DNA of 64,000 bases, taken from the NCBI RefSeq assembly GCF_036971445.1, contig NC_091474.1, forward strand, positions 9,486,001 to 9,550,000, written 5' to 3'. The position numbers were made by a program, and so were the translations under genes. Below, piece after piece: positions 16,094-51,700 of the stretch (its first letter is position 1; each line of letters begins with the position of its first letter). Source of the DNA: Narcine bancroftii (Eukaryota). The notes beneath the pieces were generated by a model. That model was not told the DNA's origin, ran no database searches, and saw nothing but the letters and a program-made list of their open reading frames with translations.

Positions 16094-17045
16094 CTGTCCC
16101 ATCACGACTATTGTATGGCCATCCACCAACCGTAAGCATTGATGGCGTTGGGGAGCTCGCTCTGCTGTCCACTTCAACATGCTGTGTAATATGGCGCACT
16201 GTTTGCTTATTTTTGCGATTCTTTTTCCGGCCAGGCAACTGCCACACCTCAGGGACCTGATCAGAAAATGCACTCTGTGCTGAAGTGTTACTTTTTCCAA
16301 GGTGGGCTTCTCTCAATTCAGAACCTCCATAATGTGAGGGAGATATCTGTTCCTCCTTGACTCGAAATGAATTGTAACCAATGTCACTTGACCAGAGTGA
16401 TTGTGAAGAGATGTCATCATGACTGTCAGTTTTCTGCTCATGTTCCTCTTTGCTGTAGCTACTCCCACCATCATGACAACTTGCAATCGCTGAATCTCCA
16501 GAAGAATTTGCTGGACTTGTCCGTCGTCTTTCCAACCAAGGAGAATTACTCCTGCCCACTGCTACTGGTGTTACAATATCAATGCTGCTGCTTGAGGGGG
16601 CTCCCATATCATACTCCATAATGTCGTCTGACGGCTCAGTCTTTATACTGATATCTAAAGCTGCCTTGATAAAACTATGACATGCCTGAACTATGTCTGT
16701 CATCTGCAAATAGCTTGCAGCTGACATTACCTCAATGACATTCTTGCTTGTCAATGCTAGGTGCGCAGAGTACATAAAATCTATGATTACTTTGAAACCT
16801 TGTGCAGTGACGATGTCCAAATGAGTCACAGTAGCCTGATCTGAAGACATCTTCTGCACCTGACAGTACAAAGTCTTGAAGTAGCGGCTACTGCCAAGCA
16901 GGACATTTTTATGCGCCTTGAAGATTTTTCCCTCCACAATAATGCACACATCACAAAGGATGCCATGCTGTCGCTGTTCATTTAATTCCCTTAACAAGTG
17001 GCGGTAGTGTGATGGGATTTCCATATCATCTTTTCGATTGTCCAT
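16094..17045 (-). CDS. ZBTB46: ZBTB46 (zinc finger and BTB domain-containing 46), first coding exon: BTB domain and linker
   Basis: MDNRKDDMEIPSHYRHLLRELNEQRQHGILCDVCIIVEGKIFKAHKNVLLGSSRYFKTLYCQVQK...SPANSSGDSAIASCHDGGSSY closely matches vertebrate ZBTB46 as I recall it. Acceptor ttttcttcgctttaatag| places the exon start at 17073. Donor CAG|gtaagc lies at 16094/16093 (phase 1, 952 coding nt). Confidence 0.95.
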
Positions 17046-20000
17046 TGAAAGATATTGTTGTTGCTTTTGAATTCTATTAAAGCGAAGAAAAAAATCAGTT
17101 TCATAAATAAAAATATGGCTTTGCCTACAAGACATCTTCCTGATAATAGCATTCTATTCCAACATTTACAAAGTCAACTCATTGTTATTTAATGGTTCAG
17201 ATCATGGATAATCAAAGCAAAATAGGATATTTCATCACAAATAAAGACAGTGCTCAAAACAGACACAGTGTGTGCAAGCAGACAAAGTGTTACTATTCAG
17301 GTTATAGGCCTCATTTTTTTCTGCAAAGGGGTTGCTTAACCTACATTTTTCCTCTCTGATGTAGAATGCATCACATTATAACCAAGCAATGGAGCTTGCT
17401 AATTTTTTTTTTCCTTAAACTCCCATCATACCCCACATTAATATTTGTGAAGTCAAGGCGGGAAGTTGCAATTAGAAAACAACAGAATCCTTCAATAAAA
17501 TCCAAATACAGCTCAATTTGAAATATTTTTAGCATAAGTGGAATAAAATAACAAGTTAATGATTAGTTTTCTCCCAACATTTTAAAAGATTTCAAAGAAA
17601 TACATCTTAGGTTTCCTTCATTGTTCAATCACAGCAGATAAATGGTTTTTGTGAAATTAATCCATTTAGATCACTTTTTTTATTATACAGATTCTTTTCA
17701 CATGGAGATGAAATTTTAGAATTTTCTACCACCAGCAAAGAATGCTGAGCAATTTGATAAATTCAGCCTTGAAATTGCTTTCAAGACTAGGGGAGAAAGT
17801 GGAGTTGAACCCAGTGATCAGATTATTGTATGATAGAGCAGGCTCAACGTGGTGTATGGTCAACTTCTGCTTCCAATTTGTGCTCCAACTACATTATAGA
17901 AAAACACAGCTGTTTATATGATTATAATAATATTTCTATTTTATTGCACTTGCTTTCAATATCAATCACATTTTCTCTGAAATGACACAATAATAAAGCT
18001 TTGGCAATCTTTTAATTTTAATTGTCTCTGGGTATTTCTTACCATAACCATCAAGTGAATCAACCAAGTTGATTGCCAAACTCAAAAATCACAGACCTGA
18101 AACATCAATTATTTTTTTCCACAAATATTGCCCAATTTTGCTGCACGTGCCAGCATTTTCTCCCTGATTTCCAGCATGTTCAGTCCTCATGGACCCCCCC
18201 CCCGCCCCTTTCTTCATGATTGATCTCAACAACAAAATAACTGAAGATTAGGCCACTAGAACCGATCATGCTTGCTCCATTCCATAATCCAAAAGTTAAC
18301 TTTTGACCATTTCATCACAGTTCCAAAATCCTTTTATCACAGGTGGGTGCTTTAACCATATAACTGTTTACGGCGTGGAAACAGGCCATGTCTGCCCTTC
18401 AAATCCATGCCGATTCACTTGCCAATGCCCCGGGGCAGTTAGTCCCAACAGTGTTTACATAGGATGGCGGTCACTTCCGTGAGGCCTTGGCAGGCTGCAG
18501 GAGTCTTCGTGGAGTGCCCAGCGATGGGGGTCTGTGTGGCAGCTTTGGTGCTTTGGAAAAAAAAATCTATTCTTTCCATAGGCATAAATGTTTTTATGCT
18601 AAATCCATGATTCCCAGTTCAAGAAGTACTGGACTGAAGGAGCAGACCATCATCTATCCTTTAAACTGCCTCCAGAAATTTCAGACATTTTATTTGAACA
18701 CAGATTCTCTATTGTGTCCCAAAGAAATGGATCTCCATGTAAATGTACTTTATTTAACATGTTTGAATATGCTTGATTTTGTTCAATGATGATGAAATGT
18801 TTCCTTGTTGACACATCTTCCATACAAAAACCAGACATTCAATTAATAACTAATAATTTGCAATGATTATAATGTAATCTTATTTTGCTTACTGTCTTTC
18901 TTTCTCCCGCTGTCCTTCCCCTTCGTCAATGTAGTGCCAGTTTCTTCCCATTTTGTCCCCAGGATTGTTCACAATTTCCCAGTTGTTTGAAATGATGAGG
19001 AATCCTACCTAGAAGCAAATCATAAATGTTCCATTATTGTACAAGAACATAACTTTTAAAATGCTATTAGTGCCAAGAATTAATAATTTCAGCTGAGAGT
19101 TACTTTTCAAATTGTGTCTAAATTGATCATTGATTTTTTTTTGTGAATTCTTAAAAATAACTAACCATTATTTGTCACTTCTCATTTGTATGTTACTCTT
19201 TTCTCCTGCTCTGAACAGAGGACGATCATGATTGCTCAATAAAAAAAATAAGAATTATGAGAGAATAAACTAGGATAAACACATGCAAAACAGAAGAATC
19301 TAACGTTATTTACTGCTCGCATCTTCACAAAAGGAAACCTATCCCTCAATAAAAGTCTAATAAATACAAATAATGCTTTATTTACAATCAGATCTACTCT
19401 GCTTACAATGGACAACATTTGAAAAAAAAATAAAGATGCAAGAAAGTTTTACTTGTAAACCTTAAAAGTTTTCTGAAAAAAAAAATGACAAATTGTGGGG
19501 AAATTAAGGCGTAAAAACAAATCAAATGTGCTCCAAATTCAAAATCTTGGAATTTATGATTTTTAAAAAGATATTATTGGTCAGGCCAGTACTTAATCTC
19601 CATTCACAATTCTCCCAAAAGGAAACTGATGACAATTTCTTAAACCATCACAGTTTTTGCAGGGCAAGTACAGCACTGGTTGATAACATCTCGACCCAAT
19701 GACAATGAAAAAGTGTCGCAGCACAATGTCAAAGAAATCCAAGTAACAATGGTTATGACTGGCAACTTGCAGTTCATGGCTATGTGCAGAAAAAGGTGGT
19801 TTCAATGCACTTAACCTAATATAAAATTTGTTCACTAGTATAAATTCAGGTTCCTAACAATAAATTTGAAGGAACCGGTTAACTTGAAAGTAAACTCAAA
19901 ATGCATTTCAATTCACTTATCCAAAGGCAATAAATCAGTCCTACTCTCTAACTAATCTCATGTTACTTTATTTTCTCACAAATATGGCCACAAATTAATA

Positions 20001-20391: not shown

Positions 20392-20892
20392 AGATTATTC
20401 CTCTGACCATTGCAAGCTGGTCTTATTCTTTGAAAGCCATTTAGATAGTGAAAGGTCTCAATGGTGAGATTGGATGTTACTCAATGAAACTGCCAGTGGG
20501 AGAGCTGTGACAGGTAAGTATGGTTTTTGTGTGGAATTGAGCAGTGCGTGGAGGCAGTTTACCAAAGTCAGAGATTTCCTGGCTTTTCATTCTTAGACAT
20601 CATGTATGAGGTCAACTCCAAATTGAAATGCCAACATTGGTGAATCGCCTCCTGCCTCAGTGATGATCAATGAACATAATATTCATAGTGTAGTCTCACC
20701 ACAACAGCTTCAGCATCATCTGTTCTGACTTCCATTCCACTCTTTAACTGCATATCATCACATTCTATTTAGTCTGTTCATTCTTGTTCTGCAATAACTA
20801 GATGTTGAGCACCATATCAATTAAAACATTTTACAAATTGATCCTTTGCTAGCTTGACAAGAACACAAGAATCTTTGCACTTCCTTCTTTAT
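20392..20892. repeat. Source copy of a 501-bp local direct duplication
   Basis: Matches 21648-22148, with 2 mismatches seen. Confidence 0.95.
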
Positions 20893-21647: not shown

Positions 21648-22148
21648 AGATTATTCCTCTGACCATTGCAAGCTGGTCTTATTCTTTGAAAGCCATTTAG
21701 ATAGTGAAAGGTCTCAATGGTGAGATTGGATGTTACTCAATGAAACTGCCAGTGGGAGAGCTGAGACAGGTAAGTATGGTTTTTGTGTGGAATTGAGCAG
21801 TGCGTGGAGGCAGTTTACCAAAGTCAGAGATTTCCTGGCTTTTCATTCTTAGACATCATGTATGAGGTCAACTCCAAATTGAAATGCCAACATTGGTGAA
21901 TCGCCTCCTGCCTCAGTGATGATCAATGAACATAATATTCATAGTGTAGTCTCACCACAACAGCTTCAGCATCATCTGTTCTGACTTCCATTCCACTCTT
22001 TAACTGCATATCATCACATTCTATTTAGTCTGTTCATTCTTGTTCTGCAATAACTAGATGTTGAGCACCATATCAATTAAAACATTTTACAAATTGATCC
22101 TTTGCTAGCTTGACAAGAACACAAGCATCTTTGCACTTCCTTCTTTAT
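21648..22148. repeat. Inserted copy of 20392-20892
   Basis: Direct sequence match. It interrupts the Penelope-like element. Confidence 0.95.
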
Positions 22149-22168
22149 TAGGGTTAGGGTTAGGGTTA
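22148..22168 (+). repeat. Short interstitial telomeric repeat (TTAGGG)3TTA
   Basis: ttagggttagggttagggtta sits exactly at the end of the duplicated segment. Confidence 0.9.
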
Positions 22169-35837: not shown

Positions 35838-37347
35838 CACACCCAATGTCGGTATCTGCTACTTCATCAAATTGGTTCAATGCAATTTGCCCTCATCCAA
35901 AGAGACTTATGAGCAGTAACTAATAATTTCCTCCTGTTCTTCACCCAAAATCTCAATCTGTGCTATTTCTAAAAATTATCATGGCCTCAATTTTACTTTG
36001 GCTGCATTTTCTTCCCTTGTGAATACGAATGTAAAGTGCTCGTTTAGTACCTCCACATGCCTTCGGTATCCATGTGCAAGTTCCCAACTTTGTGTTTAAT
36101 GGACCCTATTCCCTGGTGCACCATTTTACTGTTTATACATCACTTGGTTTCAGACTTTTGCTATGCAAGTACTAGTTTGTTTAGTTCCCTGTCTGGCTCT
36201 TAATTACTTTAAAAATAATCACGTGCACTTAACTTCCTTAAAATTCTAAATGGCACGATTGTACAAATGCAACAAACAAGTTCAACAAAATGCAGTGATA
36301 TAATGATTACAAATGTAATTGAATGTTCTTGTCAAATGTTAACATTGAACATTTTTTCACAAATTAGTTTTGAATGCATTTTAACCTGGCATGACAAAGT
36401 TGAAATTTGTTCTACATGTTGTAAAAACAAAATCAAACCAATTCTTCTATAATAGCCTTGGATCAGAATGACTTTATACCTTCTACAAAGTAATATTTGT
36501 AATTTTCATGCAAAACATTAACTGTGAAACAACATGTATTACTAATCATTTAAGGGCAACAGAAGGTAAATGTTTAAAATGGGAAAGCCCTTTCTGTTTG
36601 AACTGAAAACTCCAACCAGGAAGTGGTAGATTTCAACTACCTCGACAATTCTGAATGAGTTGACACACATGAACTGCTGGAACATACTTATGCCAAGAGA
36701 ATGGAGGATGTGGGCAAACAACACCCCAGTAATGGCTGGTAGTCAATTATTCAGATTTTCCAACCAAAGTGGAAACCCCCCACCCCCGTTACAAGATGGA
36801 TGTGTGCTTTACAGAAGAATTTAAATTACGCAGCTCGATTAACAACAAAATTGCACAAGTCACATATTGTTGATTTGTTTCTGGTTCCAACAAAATATAC
36901 ACCCAACTCAAAATTTGTGCTTTAAGTTGACTTCACATTTGGTCGTTTTGCTTATTATACCAACTCAATGGGATCAGCCTACCTGCATCGGGTTTGTAGG
37001 TTAAAAGCCACCCAGTTTGTCAATTTAACTTACAAAGTTCGATGCAAGTGTAGAATTAAAATCGTGGAATAATTTGGGTTAGTGACAGATTTGTGTGTGT
37101 AATTCACTGGGGAAACAATAGTGAAGTGAACGCCTATACATTTAAATATTTTTTTTTAAAAAACAAGATTCATTTGATAATAATGAGACCCGATTTAGGA
37201 TCCCTCCGTTCAGTGTAAATATTTAAGCATCTGGAGTACAATCCAAATCACTTATTTATCAGTAGCAAAACGGAAGTAGCACATGGGCGAAATCAAGTAC
37301 ACTGCCTTAGTTAATAAAGAACTCTGTCAAATCTGACAACGAAAAGA

Positions 37348-37521
37348 GAGAACAAAGTGTATTTTAAAGATTTAAAGTGAATTAGAATTCAGTACAATGA
37401 CGAGATACAGAACTCAATTAAAAATAAGATGGCATTCTGCAACAGGACCAGATATTTCAGATGTTTTGCCCGTTGAAATCGGGATAATCCTCAACCGATA
37501 ACAGGTCTCTCAGAACAAAGT
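37348..37521 (+). repeat. Left arm of the inverted repeat flanking the ZBTB46 promoter
   Basis: Reverse complement of 39399-39546, apart from two short indels and a few substitutions. Confidence 0.93.
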
Positions 37522-38590
37522 CAGGCTTTGGGGGGGGGGGGGGGTGTGGGGGACACAATAATGGGCCAGGCCGCGGCCTTACCCCGCACCGCGCTCTCCA
37601 TGTACTTTCCAAGCCCGACTGCAACTCTAGGCAGAGCCCGGGGTTGGGGGGGGGGGGGAAAGCCGGCGGGGTGGTGGGGGGTAGGGGGATGGGGACTTGA
37701 CTCCATCTCCACCGAGGCCAAGGGACGATTCAAGCCGAAAGACGGGCGTTGACGCAGCAGGAATCGGCGTCCGGCCTCGCTCCCCACCCCATCCCACCCC
37801 CCCCCACCCCAGTTTCCCGGCCACGCGGGGGGTAGAGGGGGTTACACTCAGTCCATCTTTAAACCCCTTGCACCCACCGCCGCCGACCAACGGCCGGAAG
37901 GATCGAAAACACCACAGAAAATACCGGAGTGCCCCATAAACAAAGTAGCTCAGAGGCAGGGGAGAGGGGGGGAGAGAGAGAGGGGGGGGGTGGGGAGAGA
38001 GAGGAAACGGACAGGCGCCGCCCGCCAGTCACTCACCGATTAACCCATGTATGTGTGGAGCAGCGGATCGGGGCCCCGAGACCAGTGCACAAGAGGGGGG
38101 GGGGCGAGGTGGGGGGGGGGGGGGGGAGAGAAGAAGAGACGATCCCGAGAAGCCGCCGCCTCCTCCTCCTCCTCCTCGCAGCCTGAGTGAGTAACCAGGA
38201 ACCTGCTCTGGCCGCGAGCGGAAACGGCAGCCTGGAATTGTGGGTAAGGAATAGACCCACCCCTGGCTGCTCGATGAACCCGGGGCGCGCTGCGGAGCCG
38301 GCGAGGTGCGAACGGACGCGCAGCGCCCGGCCCGCTCTTCGGGAGCCCGCCACGCGCGACTGGCACGGCCCCGAGCGCGACTGGCACGGCCCCGAGCGCA
38401 AGCTGCGCCGCATCGTGCACCACACGCGTGTTTTTGAAGTCTCTGCCATTCAGGGGTCGACCCCAGTAGGTCGGGTTCGTCACTGCCCTGAGCAACTGCA
38501 CGCCGTGGGCCAGCTGATGTCGAAACCACCGCCCAGTGTATTCCCACACTAAAACGACTCACCGGCTACATGCATAAGAGCAGCCGTTTA
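37522..38590 (-). promoter_or_regulatory. ZBTB46: CpG island: probable ZBTB46 promoter and non-coding exon 1
   Basis: The only large CpG-rich non-repeat block, about 21 kb upstream of the coding exon on the same strand. It has G-tracts, a (GAG)n(GCG)n leader, and minus-strand donors TCG|GTGAGT (38037/38036) and CCG|GTGAGT (38563/38562). Confidence 0.8.
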
Positions 38591-38675
38591 GACTTTCGAA
38601 ACATGCAGTGCGATGCACATGCCAACATCGAGAGAATTCATTAACGGTGGGATCTGACGGATTTGATCCACAGAA

Positions 38676-39213
38676 GCAACGCACATCATCTAGTCTTGAC
38701 AGCCCCAGTGCTTAACTACTTCACTGGCACTTAACCGACCCTGCTTGCAACTTGTGCAACGCACATCATCTAGACTGGACAGCCCCAGTACTTCACTGGC
38801 ACTTACCCGACCCTGCTTGCAACTTGTGCAACGCACATCATCTAGACTTGACAGCCCCAGTGCTTAACTACTTCACTGGCACTTAACCGACCCTGCTTGC
38901 AACTTGTGCAACGCACATCATCTGGACTTGACAGCCCCAGTACTTCACTGGCACTTAACCGACCCTGCTTGCAACTTGTGCAACGCACATCATCTGGACT
39001 TGACAGCCCCAGTGCTTAACTACTTCACTGGCACTTAACCGACCCTGCTTGCAACTTGTGCAACGCACATCATCTGGACTTGACAGCCCCAGTACTTCAC
39101 TGGCACCTAACCGACCCTGCTTGCAACTTGTGCAACGCACATCATCTAGACTTGACAGCCCCAGTGCTTAACTACTTCACTGGGACTTAACTGACCCTGC
39201 TTGCAACTTGTGC
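38676..39213. repeat. Minisatellite of 7 units alternating 80 and 72 bp (152-bp higher-order period), followed by (TA)n
   Basis: gcacatcatc recurs at 38681, 38761, 38833, 38913, 38985, 39065 and 39137. Confidence 0.95.
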
Positions 39214-39398
39214 CCGTGCATATATATATATATATATGCAAGAAGTGTCCTTAATTACATTGTCTGGTTTTGAATAAGCAGATGTTGGAATATTCTTGAT
39301 AAACAAGGAGTGGAAGTATGCCAGAGTGGACAAGAATGTGCAACTGAGCTGACAGTCTGCCGTGATCTTCTTAAATTACACAAGAGGCCAACTAACCA

Positions 39399-39546
39399 AC
39401 TTTGTTCTGAGAGACCTGTTATCGGTTGAGGATTATCCCGATTTCAACGGGCAAAACATCTGGTCCTGTTGCAGAATGCCATCTTATTTTTAATTAAGTT
39501 TTGTATCTCGTCATTGTACAGAATTCTTTAAATACACTTTGTTCTC
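39399..39546 (-). repeat. Right arm of the inverted repeat flanking the ZBTB46 promoter
   Basis: actttgttctgagagacctgttatcggttgaggattatcccgatttcaacgggcaaaacatc... is the reverse complement of the left arm. Confidence 0.93.
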
Positions 39547-40229
39547 AATTTTTGCTCCTAACTTGTACGATCATTTGGACAGATATAAACTTCCTGAAAG
39601 ACCTTGGGTGCTTTATGAATTCAAAAGTAAAAGCGTCGTCCTGTCCACGAAAGCACACACTCTCACACACTGCGACCTGGGTCCACTTTATGAACTTAGA
39701 ATTAAGAAAATATATTCACTGTTGCCGAGACCAACAGATCATCTGGGAATGATCACCCATCTCCAAAGGAATTTATAAAATGGGAGAGTACAGAGAAAGC
39801 AAATACTTTGCTTTACGTCTTCCGAATATTTTGAGACCAGAATATGGAAAGCAAAACAAATCTATTCAAGGAAGGAAGGAAGAAAAGAGAGGAAAAAAAT
39901 AGGGAATTGCTTTCTAGCTATCCTTACAAATCTTGTCAAGTATATTGGCCTTAATGATCAGGGGTGTGATCATAGAATACTTCTTAAAAATTACAATATT
40001 GTTGGCAGAGTGACAGTGATCGTCACAGATGTGTGAAAGGGGAATGTTTAATTTTTTGATGCTATAACAATTATGAGGTGAATCTTTTTTTAAAAAAAGG
40101 AGGGCCTTTGACTTGGAACATGAACTCTGTTTCTCTTCCCACAGATGCAGCATGACCTGCTGAGTATTTCCAACATTTTCAGTTGAGGATGCATTTGGAT
40201 TTACAATTTTCATTTAGGAGCCACACCTG

Positions 40230-40973
40230 ATTTAAGTAAATCCAGAATTAAATGGGAAGATTTTTCTTTTGATATATCTCAGGAGGAATGGGAAGTTATG
40301 TGTTGAGATAGTGTGACTAAATTACTTAAATGCAAGATAATAGTTTAGTTAACTATAATTTTTTACATCAGTTAGACTTGATTCCTTAGAAGTTAAGAAG
40401 GTATGGTTTTAGTAATTCAGATTTATATTTTAGGTGTGGAACATTTGTACACGCAGTTTGGTCTTGTGATAAGGTTCAACCATTTTGGAAAAAAAATCTT
40501 TTTGGAAGAATTATTTAAGATTAAATTACCATTGGATCCATTAATTTTTTTGGTTGGGTTACTCTGTACTTTTAGTTACTGGTTTAGGGTTGGCCAAGTT
40601 TCAGATGGCGTTTGTTCATTTAGCATTAGTGGTAGCACGGAAATGTATTGCAATTACATGGAGAGATAATGTGGAATTCAATCTTGCCCGCTGGCATAAT
40701 GAGTTGAGATCCTGTATTTATATGGAGGAAATAACATATAATTTGCATAATAATTATTTTTTTTTGTTCAGATGTGGTGACCTTATTTGAAATTTATGGG
40801 TTTGGAAATATCTTAATTTTTTTTATTGTAAGTTTGACAGATCACACAGCATATGTAATTAACTGATATGTTTTTTTGCTCTCCTTGAGGGGTCTGTTGT
40901 GGGTGGGGGGGGAGGGTGGTTTTGTTTATTTTTGTTTGTTTTTTTAAATTATAAATAAAGTTTTTAAAAAAAG
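40230..40973 (+). mobile_element. L1-clade LINE 3' fragment
   Basis: ALVVARKCIAITW..WHNELRSC remnant, G-rich UTR, AATAAA and A tail. Confidence 0.75.
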
Positions 40974-42074
40974 GGAACCACACCTGACATGAGGACCACA
41001 CCTGACATGAGGACCAAACAGTAGGTATGAAGGGATTCACAAAAGAAAGCAAGGAATAAATGGGGCATTTTTGAGCTGGTGTGGTAGATAACCTTTGGGA
41101 AAAATATTTGGGTTTAATTATTTACAATCCAAATCATTGATTTAAATGAAACAGCCAATGCAAAAAAATAAATCATCATTACTTGTCAGAGATAGGAACA
41201 CAGACTAGATAACAAAAAAATGGTACTGTGAAAATGAAATTGAAATGGAAGATCAGTCATGAACTCGATGACAGCGTGACGTGAATTCTTGGACATAAGC
41301 AGCGGGCTCCAGAGAGCCTTAAAAGCTGCAGCACGAAACTTGAAGTAAATTAGTTACATTTAAAGAGCACACAGCTGCTGTCTCAGTTCTTCTCGCGCTC
41401 GTGCACACACTACCAGAATAACTTAAATAGTGCTGGCAATGACATTAAGAATGAAATGACATACAGTGTCAACCCTTTCATGGATGTAACAACTTCTACA
41501 CAACTTTCAGATTGTAGGTTTCAGCTTTTAAGTTACAGCTACTTTATTTTATCTCGTCAATACAAGATAAACATACAAGCTCTTTGGACCTAATTTGGAG
41601 CCATGGATTCAGCCACACTCTGGTCTCCCCTGATGTCCCTAATCCAGACCCTGAACCTGGCCACACAGCATCTATTGATGTTTCATTACTTGCCAATACA
41701 ATGCATTGAACACAATTTACATCTTGACAAACAGGATTCCAAAGGAGAGGGTTCTGGAGGAACTGTTCACGTACATGATATTAATAACATGTGGCCAACC
41801 TCAAGTTCACAGAGGGGAATAGCAAGTCTGCAGAAATATAAGACTTATTGCATCCCATTTCGGTGTTTGTAGAAAAATAAATTTGAATGTGATCTGCAAA
41901 AGTACACAGGCACACCAGAGAGCCCGTATAAGCCCGTATAAACAAGCTGGAAAAATACATTGAGCTTGAATGGGTAAGTATGAGTATGACGGGTGGAATA
42001 TAACCTGAATGAATTCTTTTGGTTGAGAATAGGGAAAAGTGGAAGATTTTGACCCAGGTTCAAATCTGCCACTG

Positions 42075-42545
42075 TCTGAACAGGAGTTGGCCATATGGTC
42101 TGCAGAGCCTGCTCTGCCATTCATCAAGTTCATGACTGATCTTCTATTTCAATTTCATTTTCTTCTCACCAACCCCATATCACTCAATCCCCTTCATATC
42201 CAGAATTCTGTTTTGAATTAATTCAGAGACTGATTCTCCGCTCTCCTCCATGGCAATAAATCACAGATTCACTGGCCTTCGTATGAAGAAATTTCTCCTC
42301 ATTTCATTCTGAATTGACCTATTCCTTAAAATATGATCCATGATTTTAGACTCCCCAGCAAAGACAAACATCCTCCCTGTATCAAGTACTTTCTCTCTCT
42401 CTCTTCTGAATTTTGGAGAATTCTGAGTATAATCATCTGTGGGTAACCTTGCTATCTTTGGAACTAGTACAGTGTATGCATTGTTGCACTCCATCTGAGG
42501 CAATCATATCACTTTTTTAGGTAATGAGACCAAAACTGTACACAT
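42075..42545 (-). mobile_element. Old CR1 3' fragment
   Basis: EMRRNFF.R.PVNL remnant and a CR1-type 3' UTR. Confidence 0.55.
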
Positions 42546-43329: not shown

Positions 43330-46300
43330 TGTAGCAGCGGCTACACTACTAACTGAAGGATTGCACAACCAGACAGGTTGAGTTCAATGAGCAAAAATTG
43401 ATTTATTGCAGGCTGCCAGGCTGGTCTTATACTCCCAACCCGGACCTGGCTGAGAACTGTGCTGGGGGGCCCTGACATCACCGGGGCGTCATGTGGGTCC
43501 CCAAGCTTGGGCGTCTGAACCTGGTGCCGAGGTCGGGAGTAAATTGCCCCGACAGTGCCATTTTGGCTGGCTGCCCCACCGCGTGCGTGACAAGCGGGGC
43601 CGGTTTGCCTGCCTAATGGCGTACCACCACATAGCACCCCCCACCTGCCCAGAACCGGCGCCAATGTCCTTTTGCCAGACGGCCTCGCTTCATGGGTTGG
43701 GCCACACTATTACTGGTTCAGTGTGGTCGAGGTGGGCTGGCTTTAACCTGTCCACTGTAAACAGTTCCCTCTTACCACTGGTGTCCAGTGTGAAAGTGGA
43801 TCCTGAACGCTGGAAGACTTTGTACGGCCCTTCGTATGGTCTTTGTAGAGGTGCTGTGGATGGGCCCCGCCTGATCAAAATGTACAGCTTGCTGGGGACG
43901 CAGGAGGCCATGTGCCATGTCTGGGCAGTGGTGGGGGTGTGAAGGAGTCCAACTGGGCCCGGAGATGGTGAAGTAGACCGTGTGGTAACTGCTGGGGGTT
44001 GTGCAGTGCATTGACGACCTCACCGGGTAGGGCACCATAGACCAGCTTGGCTGATTATGCCTATAGGTCCTCTTTGGGTGTCAAGCGGATGCCCAGGAGC
44101 ACCCAAAGCAGCTCGAACACCCAGTCAGGGCCGGTGAGGTGGACCATAAGTACCGACTTAAGGTGGCGTTGCAATCGCTCGACTAGCCTATTGGCCTGTG
44201 GGTGATAGGCCATGGTGTGATGTGGCTCAATCCCTAGCCTGTTGGCGAGTTGTGCCCAGAGCACAGAGGTGAACTGGGCACCCCGATCACTGGTGAGGTG
44301 GTTTGGGACACCGACCGGGCAACCCAACCGTTCAAAAGCGCTTGGGAGTAGGCGTCTGTGGAGGCATCTGGCATCGTGATTGCCTCGGGCCAACAAGTAG
44401 TGTGATCTACCACTGTGAAAAAGTAACGGTTACCTCGGGAAACGGGCAAGGGTCCGACGATGTCCACATGTATGTAGCTGAACCGTTCGCGGACATGTTC
44501 GAAATCTTATACGGGCTCTCTGGTGTGCCTGTGTACTTTGGAAAGCTGGCAATGGGTGCAGGTTCTGGCCCAGTCTGCAATCTGCTTCCGAAGCCCATGC
44601 CAGATGAAACGTTCTGCCATCATACGGACCGTGGACCTGATGGAAGGGTGGGAAAGGTCATGGATATGGTGGAAGGCTTGCCTGCACCACTGCTGGGGAA
44701 CCACAGGTTGCCGGGTGCCCATGGAGACATCGCACAGGAGAGTGCCCTCACCATGAGGAGTCGGGAGGTCCTGGAACCGCAGGCCCATGACAGCAGTCCT
44801 GAAGGCCCGCGTCTCATCGTCGGACTCCTGGTCCTGGGTGAGCTGGTCAAAGTCGAGGACGGGTGTCAGCGTGCAAATGGCCGGTCGTGAGAGTGTGTCG
44901 GTGACCACGTTGTCTTTCCCCGCCTTGTGCTGAATGTCGGCGGTGAACTCTGACACAAAGGAGAGGTGAGACTGGTGGCGGGCCAACCAGGGATCTCTTG
45001 CCATAGCGAGCGCCTGAATGAGGGGTTTATGGTCGGTAAAAATGGTGAAAGGCCTCCCATCCAAGAAATAGCGGAAATGACACACCGCAGGTACATGCCA
45101 AGCAACTCATGATCAAAAGCGTTATACTTGCGTTCTGGTGAGCGAAGAAGTCAGCTGAAGAATGCCAGTGGTTTCCACTGTCTGTTCACCTGCTGCTCCA
45201 GGATGGCGCCGACGGCTGTGGCAGAGGCATTGACGGAAAACGCCATATGCAGGTCGGTTCGTGGGTGGACAAGCAGGGTAGCCTTCACGAGGGCATCTTT
45301 TGTGGCTTCGAATGCCCTGCTGGCCTCTGGAGTCCAGGTGAGTGTCTTGTTTCCATACGTTCAGTTCTCCGTCGAATTGGCTGCACGGAGGGGAGGTCCT
45401 CGAGGCCGGTTCTGGGACTCGATGGCTGTGGTCAGGGTGACGCTGATCTGGGCCCCGGTGTCGACAAGAAAGCATAGGCCTCTGACTGAGTCCTGCAGGT
45501 AGAGAAGACTGTGTTCTTGGCCAGCTGCCGCAGCCATTAACAGCAGCCGGCCTGCTCATTTCCCTGAAACGAGCAGTGCTGATGACACTTCCAAGCCTTG
45601 GCTCCCCAGTGTTGGTGGAAGAAGCAGAGACCTGAAGTGGATGACTTGCTTCTGGCTATGCTCTTTGAGACCCCTGCAGGAGCCGGGTGTTCCAGTGCAG
45701 CACTAGAGGAAGGCTTGGTGTGGTCATGCCCATGACTTGTAACCTGCTAGACTGCTGAGCCCTCTCGGAATCGTTCGAGCCATAGCTCCTGAGCCTTTTA
45801 AGTGACCTTCCTAGGGTCGACAAAGCTCTCCTGGGACAGTAACGGCCGGATGTCTTCAGGCAGATGATCGAGGAAGGTGCGCTCGAAGAGTGGGCAATTG
45901 GTGTGATCACCCATGAGCGCGAGCATCTCATCCATCAACTCAGTTGGAGTTCTGTCCCCTAAAGCATTGAGGCGCAGCATCCGAGCGGCCCGCTGGCACC
46001 TGGAGAGGCCAAGGAAGCTGGTGAGAAACCGCTTGATGGTCCTGTACTTATCTTCCATGGGTGGGTGCTGAACGAGGTGCAGCACTCGTTTGGCAGTAGC
46101 CTGGTCCAGGGCAGCGACCACATGGTAAAACTTGGTCGAATCCAATGAAATTTAGTAGAGGTGAAATTGAGCCTCTGCGTGGCTGAACCAGGTCTCCGAC
46201 TCCTGAACCCAGAAGTCAGGAAGCTTGATGGCTATAGCGTTGATCAAAGGGTCATTCATGTTGGGTTCAAAGACGTTTGAACCTGTCGGGGTCACCAATT

Positions 46301-47326: not shown

Positions 47327-47556
47327 TTTGCGAGACCCTGCTGTGCTCGGGAGTTATCGCCCAGCCTGCACCGAGAGGCTAAAAAAGGAAAGGCAAAAAA
47401 GATAGGCACCAAGGACAAGATGAGACACCATGGCAAGATGGCAGTGATGACTACCTGGAGAACTGACGACTCGTTTGACACTTCTTCCTCAGAGAGTGTA
47501 AGCGGAACAACTAGTGACGAGGCGAGCACCTGCGGGACGTCGCAGCTGCATGGTCC
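47327..47556 (+). repeat. Isolated 230-bp copy of the Gypsy gag-protease linker (49039-49268)
   Basis: Direct match with 2 mismatches seen. Confidence 0.93.
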
Positions 47557-48799: not shown

Positions 48800-51700
48800 A
48801 AAGTCCCTCAGAGTAGCAATGCAGAGTGCTAAAGTGCTAGGGGACAAGGTGGGTCAAAGTGCTGAAGCTACTCCATCAAAGTCTGCTTCCCGCGATGATG
48901 ACCCACTGCTGAGCGTACCAACCAAGCAGCCGCGAAGGAATCGCTTCAGGAAGTGCTACTTCTGTGGGCAGACACTGCATTCGTGCACACTGTGCCCTGC
49001 CCAACGAGCTGTCAGTGGCATGTGTAGAAAGGGAGCATTTTGCGAGACCCTGCTGTGCTCGGGAGTTATCGCCCAGCCTGCACCGAGAGGCTAAAAAAGG
49101 AAAGGCAAAAAAGATAGGCACCAAGGACAAGATGAGACACCATGGCAAGATGGCAGTGATGACTACCTGGAGAACCGACGACTCGTTTGACACTTCTTCC
49201 TCAGAGACTGTAAGCGGAACAACTAGTGACGAGGCGAGCACCTGCGGGACGTCGCAGCTGCATGGTCCCATCCTGGCATCTATCACCCTCAATCAAGACA
49301 AACCCCATGGGCTGAAACATTGCCATGGGAAAGCTGTTGACTGTTTATTTGATTCTGGGAGTGCTGACAGCTATATCCACCCAGTGACAGCAAACTCTTT
49401 GCGGATTAAACTGTACCCTTTAAAGTGCAGAATTTCTATGGCATGTTACGGATTCAAGAAAGAAATTGCAAACTGCTGTAGAGTAATGTTAAATGTACAA
49501 GGAACCATGACCTTGCCTCGCCCAGTGTGTAGTTAACAAGGAACCAAGAATCGAGTACTGCCCGATTTATGCGCTCAGATGTTGTTGGGGTTAGATTTCC
49601 AATGCCAAATGAAGAGCATAGTACTGGCATTTAATGGGCCACTACTTTCAATTGAGACAATTTGTGGGCTATCAACTCTTAAAATTAAACCGCCACACCT
49701 TTTTGCCAATTTAACCCCAGACTGTAAACTTATAGCCACAAAAAATAGACACTATTGTAAAGCGGATAGAGAATATATTAAGAACAATTGAACCAAGCTC
49801 AAACCCTTGGCGTGCCCAAGTTGTCATTGCCAAAAATGGGGAAAAATTGGATGGTTGTAAACTATAGCCAGACTGTGAACAGATTTACTCAGTTAGATGC
49901 ATATTCCCTACCTCGCATCTTTGACATGATGAATCAAATTGCCCAATACAAAATATGCTCCACAATAGATTTAAAGTCAGCCTACCGTTAAGTACCTGTA
50001 TTCAAAAAGGAAAGACAGTTTGAAGCAAATGGTAGGCTGTATCAGTTTAGAAGAGTTCTGTTTGGCATTACCAGTGGAGTATCTGTTTTCCAGAGGGAAA
50101 TGGATAGGTTGATGGACACACATGACTTACAGACCTCCTTTCCCTACTTGGACAATGTCACCATATGTTGTAAAACCCTGGAGGATCATGATTGTGACTT
50201 GAATAAATTCCTTCAGATGGCCAAAGATCTAAACTTAACCTTTAACAAAGACAAGTGTGTGTATCACACGAAGCGCCTGGCTATATTGGGCTATGTTATC
50301 AAAAGGGGTGAAATCAGCCCCAACCCTGAAAGAATGAGTCCTCTCATGGAACTGCCTCCTCCAACCACAAAGAAGTCTCTCAAACGCTGTCTAGGCTTCT
50401 TCTCTTATTATGCACAGTGGGTGCCTAACTACGCAGACAAGGCCCGACCACTTTTTAAAACTTCTGTTTTTCGATGTCAGAGGAACCCCACAAAGCTTTT
50501 GAGAACATCAAATTAGACATTGCCAAAGCTTCAATGTCTCCTATTGACGAGGATTTGCCCTTCCAAGATGCCTCTGATTGTCCTCTCGCTGCCATACTAG
50601 ACTAAGCTGGTAGACCTGTAGTCTTTTCTCTCACAGACATTACAAGGGCAGGAACTGAGGCATTCCTCCAGTGAAAAAAAAGGATAGGCTATAATTCGTT
50701 ACTGGAGACACTATTTAGCAGGGAAAAGATTCACATTGCTGACAGGTCAGAAGTTAGTAGCTTACATGTTCAACACAAAATTAAAAATGATAAAATCACA
50801 CACTGGAGATCAAACTCTCTACATAATTATGATATCCTCTACCACCCAGGGAAGCTGAACAATCCTCCTGACACTCTATCTCACACGACTTGCGCGAGCA
50901 ATACAATCAGATCGCTTGAAAGAACTTCATGATGTTACGAGAATGTATCATTATGTGAAGTCTTTCAACTTGCTGTATTTGCTCGAAGATGTAAGGCAAA
51001 TGACTAAGGAATGTGTAGTCTGGGCAGAGTGCAAACCACAGTTCTATAAGCCTTCCAAGGCCAACCTTATTAAATCCACCAGACCTTTTGAGCGCCTCAA
51101 TGTCGATTTCAAAGAACCACTACCATCTAATAATAAAAATGACTACTTCCTTGACATTATAGACAAATTCTCATGTTTTCCTTTCGCTGTTCCCTGTGCC
51201 GATGTGTCAGCTTCAACAGTCATTTGCTCCCTTGATAAAATCTTCAGCATTTTTTGGTTATCCTGACTTTATTCATAGTGATAGAGGATCTGCCTTTATG
51301 AGCACTGAGTTAAGACAAGCCCTTCTGGCAAAAGGTATTGCTACTAGCCATACCACTATTTATAATCCATGTGGTAATGGGCAAGTGGAGCGGAATAATG
51401 CCACTATTTGGAAAACTATCACTCTTGCACTGAAATCTAAAGGTTACCCCACTAGCCGCTGGCAATATGTATTGCCAGGAGTGCTACACTCAATTTGCTC
51501 CTTACTATGCACAGCTACTAACGAAAGCCCCCACCAACATATTTTTACTTTTTCCAGAAAATCAAAAACTGGGTTGACTTTGCCAGCCTGGCTATCTAAA
51601 TTGGGACAGGTTTTGCTGAGAAAACACGCTAGACACAGTAAATCTGATCCACTCGTGGAAAGAGTGCAGCTACTCCATGCAAATCCAAGCTATGCTTATA

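What the first reader, a model, noticed from the sequence alone, without database searches (positions are those of the whole stretch)
37348..39546. Long inverted repeat exactly bracketing the ZBTB46 promoter, exon 1 and minisatellite
Seen: 37348-37521 and 39399-39546 are reverse complements, with about 60 bp of perfect match at the inner ends, two short indels and a few substitutions. The left arm ends precisely where the G-rich CpG island begins. The 1.88-kb interval holds the whole promoter, both candidate first-exon donors and the 80/72 array. The arm shows no TIR, TSD or tail and occurs nowhere else in the window. Inference: either an inverted templated duplication made at the fragile island edge, or the scar or substrate of a promoter inversion. 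Recombination between the arms would flip the promoter away from the gene, and a transcript spanning both arms could form dsRNA.
Basis: partly seen in the sequence, partly recalled or inferred. Interest (0 to 1): 0.72.

Follow-up and report, generated by a model that had tools for sequence, protein, structure and literature searches.

The report
Repair-made inverted duplicate beside ZBTB46 promoter
A 174-base piece of DNA next to the likely ZBTB46 promoter was copied backwards into a spot 1.9 kb away, likely while a DNA break was being repaired; the stretch between the copies keeps the same orientation as in a related species, so this is an ordinary repair scar rather than evidence of a gene switch.

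Summary
The inverted repeat is real: 37348-37521 against 39399-39546, with 64 bp identical, gaps of 17 and 9 bp and 3 substitutions. Only these two copies were found in the 3.3-Gb genome. Contigs of two related species run from the left flank into the island with the left-arm sequence. One contig of one relative crosses the right-arm site without the arm, joining 39403 to 39553. So the left arm is the old donor, the right arm is a younger insertion, and the 1.88-kb interval has not been inverted. Single donor, 1.9 kb distance, 148 bp, empty site, short junction homology and no poly-A tail match the repair-mediated duplications of Pace et al. 2009 (median 147 bp, donor within 5 kb). Eleven further close pairs, four of them inverted, lie in 1.06 Mb of the same contig, so some promoters will be bracketed by chance. 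A low-frequency or polymorphic flip could not be tested with contigs; 64 bp of identity is a weak recombination substrate. Verdict: new member of a known kind, low interest.

The parts
37348..37521 (+). Left arm: the ancestral donor sequence, in the likely first intron of ZBTB46
   Evidence: Organism C contig is collinear 37176-37628 and lacks the right arm's deletions; organism D contig is collinear 36945-37307, then 160 other letters, then 37465-37544
39399..39546 (-). Right arm: younger inverted copy (148 bp; 143 bp, 39404-39546, if ACTTT is counted as target), with 17- and 9-bp deletions
   Evidence: empty site in organism D; present in an X5 contig with 0 differences
39398..39403 (+). Inner junction AACTTT; up to 5 bases (ACTTT) shared by target and donor
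   Evidence: Sequence; organism D aligns up to 39403
39547..39552 (+). Outer junction AATTTT; 5 of 6 match to 39398-39403, read as an imperfect target-site duplication or as the ancestral target itself
   Evidence: Sequence; organism D resumes at 39553
37349..37358 (+). 10-bp direct repeat AGAACAAAGT at the outer end of the donor
   Evidence: 123 of 200000 random 174-base segments share such a word
37512..37521 (+). 10-bp direct repeat AGAACAAAGT at the inner end of the donor
37401..38800 (.). CpG island with G-runs, likely the ZBTB46 promoter
   Evidence: the next gene on the + strand has its own island and first exon
38030..38087 (-). Block conserved in organism D that holds a minus-strand splice donor (last exon base 38037); candidate end of ZBTB46 exon 1
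   Evidence: record 22; donor scan; splicing not shown
38676..39213 (.). Minisatellite of alternating 72- and 80-base units (152 x 3.5), found only at this locus
16094..17073 (-). ZBTB46 first coding exon (BTB domain; ATG at 17045), 20 kb from the island

Best explanation
The right arm is a younger, inverted copy of the left arm, inserted at a site that is empty in a related species, most likely by repair of a DNA break that used nearby DNA as template (a repair-mediated duplication). Shown: two copies only; left copy and both interval junctions collinear with relatives; insertion with no net loss at the target. Inferred: a break near 39398-39403 in the germ line; its 3' end paired through 1-5 bases (up to ACTTT) with the donor 1.9 kb away, copied about 150-170 bases, and rejoined the other end, leaving a 5-of-6 target duplication or a near-blunt join. 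The 17- and 9-bp deletions lie between short direct repeats and likely arose by slippage, perhaps during the copying. The pair is likely neutral and brackets the promoter by position, not by function.
For: Copy number 2. Organism C, one contig 37176-37628, has none of the 15-, 2- and 9-base deletions, matches the left arm at 37410 and 37415 and the right arm at 37391. Organism D also keeps the 9-base segment (loose end). Empty site: a D contig aligns 39250-39403 and its next 30 letters match 39553-39582 at 24 of 30, the best ungapped match in the window (next best 21 of 30). Pace et al. 2009 (PMC2671141): 824 of 1136 duplicons had the donor within 5 kb, median 147 bp; of 39 proximal junctions examined none had a poly-A/T tail, 3 were microhomology+TSD and 2 microhomology only. 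Background: 12 of 44 candidate clusters in 1,064,000 bases passed as close two-copy pairs, 5 inverted (this one included) and 7 direct. Of 3 others checked genome-wide, 2 had exactly 2 matches and 1 matched full length only at its local partner.
Against: The empty site rests on one contig of one run, of which 30 loose letters were shown; the base at 39400 in D was not shown, so the junction cannot be resolved to the base. The 10-bp repeat at both ends of the copied unit is not explained: 123 of 200000 random segments and 0 of the other 11 pairs have one. All differences fall in the outer 84 of 148 bases (chance 0.03-0.18 by how events are counted, post hoc), which could hint at gene conversion between the inner ends. 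The pathway (strand annealing, replication template switch or polymerase theta) cannot be told from sequence. Neutrality was not tested. The background sample is uneven: 10 pairs in 664 kb around the locus, 2 in 400 kb elsewhere.
Confidence: 0.88

Rival explanations
1. The arms are the scar of a fixed 1.9-kb inversion made at a staggered break, which turned the promoter round.
For: Inverted copies that bracket a segment are the geometry such inversions leave (recalled from Drosophila work, not read here).
Against: Left flank, left arm and island start lie in one collinear contig in C (37176-37628) and in D (36945-37544). The minisatellite-side flank joins the right flank directly in D. Both junctions are ancestral.
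Confidence: 0.02
2. The duplication arose by repair but now serves as a substrate: recombination between the arms flips the promoter in some cells or alleles and cuts ZBTB46 off from its first exon.
For: Arms are 1.9 kb apart with 64 bp identical. Pace et al. name inversion of the intervening DNA as a possible result of such duplications. Gu et al. 2008 cite recombination through matches under 50 bp between alpha-globin repeats 5 kb apart (PMC2583991, passages). Clustering of differences in the outer part is weakly compatible with exchange.
Against: The same review reports a 20-fold drop when perfect homology falls from 232 to 134 bp, and 300-500 bp as the human meiotic range. The arms have kept 3 substitutions and 26 gap bases, so they are not homogenised. 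The assembled orientation is the ancestral one. No recombinase site or dedicated enzyme was seen.
Confidence: 0.06
3. The arm is a small mobile element (MITE, SINE or LTR piece) inserted twice, and the 10-bp end repeat is its target duplication.
For: A 10-bp direct repeat borders the left arm.
Against: Two copies in 3.3 Gb. No Rfam family on either arm among the 8 weak matches in 36000-41000. No terminal inverted repeat or tail in the sequence. The 10-mers were carried into the new copy, which a transposon would not do with its old target duplication.
Confidence: 0.02
4. The second arm is an assembly artefact.
For: None beyond the G-runs and minisatellite nearby.
Against: The arms differ by 26 gap bases and 3 substitutions. 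An X5 contig spans both right junctions with 0 differences (may be the same animal). An X1 contig matches 36000-37445 exactly (source sample, not independent).
Confidence: 0.01

Closest known systems
Repair-mediated duplications (RDs), Pace, Sen, Batzer, Feschotte 2009, PMC2671141 (read: abstract, introduction, results, most of the discussion; parts 1-5 of 8)
   Same: One donor elsewhere in the genome, within 5 kb; length 148 bp against a median of 147; empty orthologous site; short junction homology or target duplication; no poly-A tail. An inverted example (ACSBG2 exon) is described there.
   Different: They looked only inside transposons and not in cartilaginous fishes. This copy carries 26 bp of internal deletions and a 10-bp repeat at both donor ends. 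The paper gives no count of inverted against direct cases.
'Doublets' of Thomas et al. (known here only through the passage in PMC2671141)
   Same: Short local two-copy duplications proposed to come from imperfect break repair.
   Different: Those surveys dealt with near-identical pairs under 100 bp; this one is longer and has diverged.
Templated insertions by MMBIR or polymerase theta (PMC8421209, PMC7165422; search listing and start of abstract only)
   Same: Copying from a nearby template primed by microhomology.
   Different: Not distinguishable from strand annealing here; that polymerase theta insertions are usually shorter and nearer is recalled, not read.
Inversions by non-allelic recombination between inverted repeats (PMC2583991, passages)
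   Same: Inverted repeats flank a segment.
   Different: Perfect homology is 64 bp, below the usual efficient length, and no inverted allele was seen or testable.

Membership tests
Repair-mediated duplication (Pace et al. 2009) | Insertion of at least 50 bp found at one other place in the genome | tested here: met
   148 bp; 2 matches in G000
Repair-mediated duplication (Pace et al. 2009) | Donor on the same chromosome, more than 50 bp and less than 5 kb away | tested here: met
   1877 bp
Repair-mediated duplication (Pace et al. 2009) | Empty orthologous site in an outgroup, donor present | tested here: met
   Organism D joins 39403 to 39553 (one contig); donor collinear in C and D
Repair-mediated duplication (Pace et al. 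2009) | Junction marks: microhomology 2-9 nt, small deletion, filler or target duplication | tested here: inconclusive
   ACTTT homology plus a 5-of-6 target duplication, or a near-blunt join with 1-2 shared bases; depends on the ancestral base at 39400, not shown
Repair-mediated duplication (Pace et al. 2009) | No poly-A/T tail of a retrocopy | tested here: met
   The 5 T at 39549-39553 border the arm but at least 4 T stand in the empty site of D, so they belong to the target
Repair-mediated duplication (Pace et al. 2009) | Made by synthesis-dependent strand annealing | not testable with these tools
   Pathway is inferred from junctions, here as in the paper
Staggered-break inversion scar | Segment between the copies inverted against the outgroup | tested here: not met
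   Both junctions collinear in D, left junction also in C
Invertible promoter switch / recurrent inversion | Both orientations present among molecules | not testable with these tools
   All 24 listed runs are contigs built on 31-letter words, shorter than the 64-bp identity
Mobile element (MITE, SINE, LTR piece) | Dispersed copies and terminal structures | tested here: not met
   2 copies; no terminal inverted repeat; no Rfam match on the arms

The most novel reading that the evidence does not exclude
A chance repair duplication has turned the ZBTB46 promoter of this species into an invertible cassette: recombination in the 64-bp identical inner ends flips the promoter in some cells or alleles and uncouples it from the gene, or an RNA that starts upstream reads through both arms and folds into a long hairpin.
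Probability: 0.07. Interest if true: 0.7.

Novelty: new member of a known kind. Interest (0 to 1): 0.15.

Why it matters
Little as it stands. It is a clean, polarised example of a repair-mediated duplication in a lineage that the original survey did not cover, and the scan suggests these scars are frequent here (12 close pairs in 1.06 Mb, not all verified). It would matter if inverted molecules were found, because a vertebrate promoter that flips between short inverted repeats would be a DNA-level switch on a transcription factor gene (its role in dendritic cells is recalled).

Tried and rejected
Inverted-allele test: not possible. An X1 contig starts at 37416, lacks the 9 bases like the right arm and runs on into the island (record 4). 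That looks like an inverted or converted molecule, but both arms share more than 31 letters on each side of the 9-base gap, so bubble removal in the contig graph gives the same picture; not counted as evidence. Lack of cover, no evidence either way: organism C had no contig across the right-arm site (its flank contig starts at 39579); X9 laid 0 records; X5 showed no left-arm version and no depth at 37170-37259 or 37890-38069; the tool filters human-like contigs, so the ZBTB46 exon 1-exon 2 joint may be hidden. No RNA holder was on record as RNA; X5 is a guess. Rfam: 8 matches at E up to 1, all far below gathering scores, none on the arms. Idea that the island is shared with the next protein gene: rejected, the TPD52-family gene has its own island and first exon about 28 kb further on. 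A circle excised between the 10-bp repeats was considered and rejected: it would not give two full repeats plus 6 further donor bases in the copy. An all-against-all BLAST timed out and was replaced by a k-mer scan. The + strand ORF list was not scanned. Earlier findings: 0 by place, 0 by words. Paper searches for this locus (ZBTB46+shark+promoter; repair-mediated duplication+inverted+promoter) listed nothing on it; listings only. Supplements of PMC2671141 were not read and may give orientation counts.

Full report
Observation. The repeat finder gives two pieces of one inverted pair, 37384-37457/39454-39527 (95%) and 37458-37521/39399-39462 (64 nt, 100%, 1877 nt apart). The alignment extends it to 37348-37521 against 39399-39546, with gaps of 17 and 9 bases and 3 substitutions. 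The whole-genome search scored 2 of 2 candidates, both here, and a 22-base pattern with 1 mismatch hit only these two places. The minisatellite is also single-locus. The gene is ZBTB46 by the best Atlas cluster (score 0.97, automatic name) and a BTB domain; its first coding exon lies at 17073-16094 on the minus strand.

Is the island the ZBTB46 promoter? Likely, by inference. A sliding scan found islands at 37401-38800, 44001-45500 (among retroelement-like frames) and 65601-66300 in window-extended coordinates. The last holds an ATG-plus-donor first exon of a + strand TPD52-family gene (the name TPD52L2 and its human synteny with ZBTB46 are recalled). That leaves 37.4-38.8 kb for ZBTB46. A block with a minus-strand donor at 38037 is conserved in organism D; other minus-strand donors score as well (38563, 38807). 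No spliced read was seen.

Which arm is old? I laid 5 of the 24 listed runs, 4 per call. On 36000-38670, one contig of organism C aligns 37176-37628, through the whole left arm into the island, without the 15-, 2- and 9-base deletions of the right arm. It agrees with the left arm at 37410 and 37415 and with the right arm at 37391, so two substitutions arose in the right arm and one in the left. One contig of organism D aligns 36945-37307, has 160 other letters in place of 157, and aligns again at 37465-37544, across the inner end of the arm into the island. On 39241-40085, another D contig aligns 39250-39403 and leaves with 95 loose letters. The 30 shown match 39553-39582 at 24 of 30, the best ungapped match on either strand of the window (next 21). 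D therefore has the empty site, with no net loss of target. This rests on one contig. C had no contig across the site and X9 was blank.

Consequence. Left flank, left arm and island are in ancestral order, and so are the minisatellite side and the right flank. The interval was not inverted. The right arm is an insertion copied from the left arm. With 3 substitutions in 148 bases against 13 in about 154 between C and the right arm, it is much younger than the split from C (rough estimate).

Junctions. The sequence reads AACTTT-insert-AATTTT-TGCTCC, and D reads through to TGCTCC. If the ancestor had AACTTT, there are 5 bases of entry homology (ACTTT) and a 5-of-6 target duplication. If it had AATTTT, the join is nearly blunt with 1-2 shared bases. 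The base was not shown. The 9-base deletion lies between two CAGAT (37449, 37458), and the 17-base one among repeats of TTTAAAG and GAATT, as slippage would leave. Two or three deletions beside two substitutions suggest that they arose in the copying (inference). The copied unit begins and ends at a 10-mer that resembles the target. Only 123 of 200000 random segments and 0 of 11 other pairs show this. It fits release of the new strand where the priming motif recurs, but I could not derive the outer junction from it; it stays unexplained.

How common? In 1,064,000 bases of contig C15, a scan for clusters of 14-mers seen exactly twice gave 44 candidates. 32 were dropped for further hits in the sample or a gap under 50. 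12 remained: 5 inverted (this one included) and 7 direct. Some direct pairs may be parts of retroelements. I checked 3 of the other 11 genome-wide: a 107-bp inverted pair and a 501-bp direct pair had 2 matches each; a 143-bp inverted pair 37 kb away, 2518 bp apart, matched full length only at its partner but overlaps a dispersed repeat (40 of 229 candidates scored). The four other inverted spacers cover 0.39% of the sample, and 0.1% of positions would allow a 1.4-kb island wholly inside. For about 20,000 promoters (assumed) that is some tens by chance. The estimate rests on 1-4 pairs and an uneven sample.

Comparison. Pace et al. 2009 (PMC2671141; parts 1-5 of 8 read; term search) define repair-mediated duplications by a single donor within 5 kb, median 147 bp, empty outgroup site, and microhomology, deletion, filler or target duplication without a poly-A tail. 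This case meets four tested features; the junction class is inconclusive and the pathway untestable.

The switch. It could not be tested, since all runs are contigs on 31-letter words. An X1 contig with the right-arm deletion runs into the island, but graph bubble removal explains it equally. Gu et al. 2008 (PMC2583991, passages) report a 20-fold fall in recombination from 232 to 134 bp of perfect match, yet also events through matches under 50 bp at 5 kb. So rare flips are possible and frequent ones unlikely. All differences lie outside the inner 64 bases, with chance 0.03-0.18, a weak hint at most.

RNA. In X5, guessed to be RNA, one contig covers 38186-38670 and another spans 39241-40085 unbroken, so the right arm is likely transcribed. 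Strand is unknown. A divergent + strand RNA would carry the arm in the same sense as ZBTB46 pre-mRNA and could not pair with it; + strand AATAAA at 40954, 41055 and 41167 would suit such an RNA. A minus-strand RNA from upstream would hold both arms and could fold (predicted duplex -241 kcal/mol). I think the first more likely; neither is shown.

Verdict. A real, lineage-specific inverted repair duplication beside a promoter that has not been turned round. New member of a known kind; interest 0.15.

Noticed in passing
window 20392-20892 and 21648-22148; telomeric repeat at 22148-22165: A 501-bp direct duplication (499 of 501 identical, 755 bp apart, 2 matches in the genome) in the likely first intron of ZBTB46; the second copy ends in three TTAGGG units. 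It looks like a very young repair duplication with telomeric filler.
   Followed up: partly
L008 612-754 and 3273-3421: A second inverted pair of the same geometry (143 bp, 92%, 2518 bp apart), 37 kb from the finding, partly made of a dispersed repeat.
   Followed up: partly
L098 5614-5720 (G000:C15:150115614 and 150116634): A 107-bp inverted pair, 97% alike, about 0.9 kb apart, 2 matches in the genome.
   Followed up: partly
window about 38140-40180: Unspliced contigs of run X5 (RNA by guess) cover the far half of the island, the minisatellite side and the right arm; candidate divergent non-coding RNA. 38188-38234 is conserved in both relatives.
   Followed up: partly
window 41899-41932 / 44506-44539 and 41230-41271 / 42121-42162: Two shorter local inverted pairs (34 nt 100%, 2573 nt apart, one arm in a retroelement-like frame; 42 nt 95%, 849 nt apart).
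   Followed up: no
window 37530-37544: The 15-G run at the island edge is 6 G in organism C and a broken G/T run in organism D, so it is a fast-changing tract (loose ends).
   Followed up: no
L007 about 1962; L008 4076-4237; L015 7133-7699; L024 2529-2981: Gene order beyond the island: a + strand TPD52-family gene with its own island, then a Hairy-orange gene, then a tyrosine kinase on the minus strand.
   Followed up: partly
window 47327-47556 / 49039-49268: A 230-bp direct pair, 228 identical, 1482 bp apart, beside retroelement-like frames.
   Followed up: no
window 38571: Both X1 and X5 contigs read C where the assembly has T; an allele or an assembly base error.
   Followed up: no
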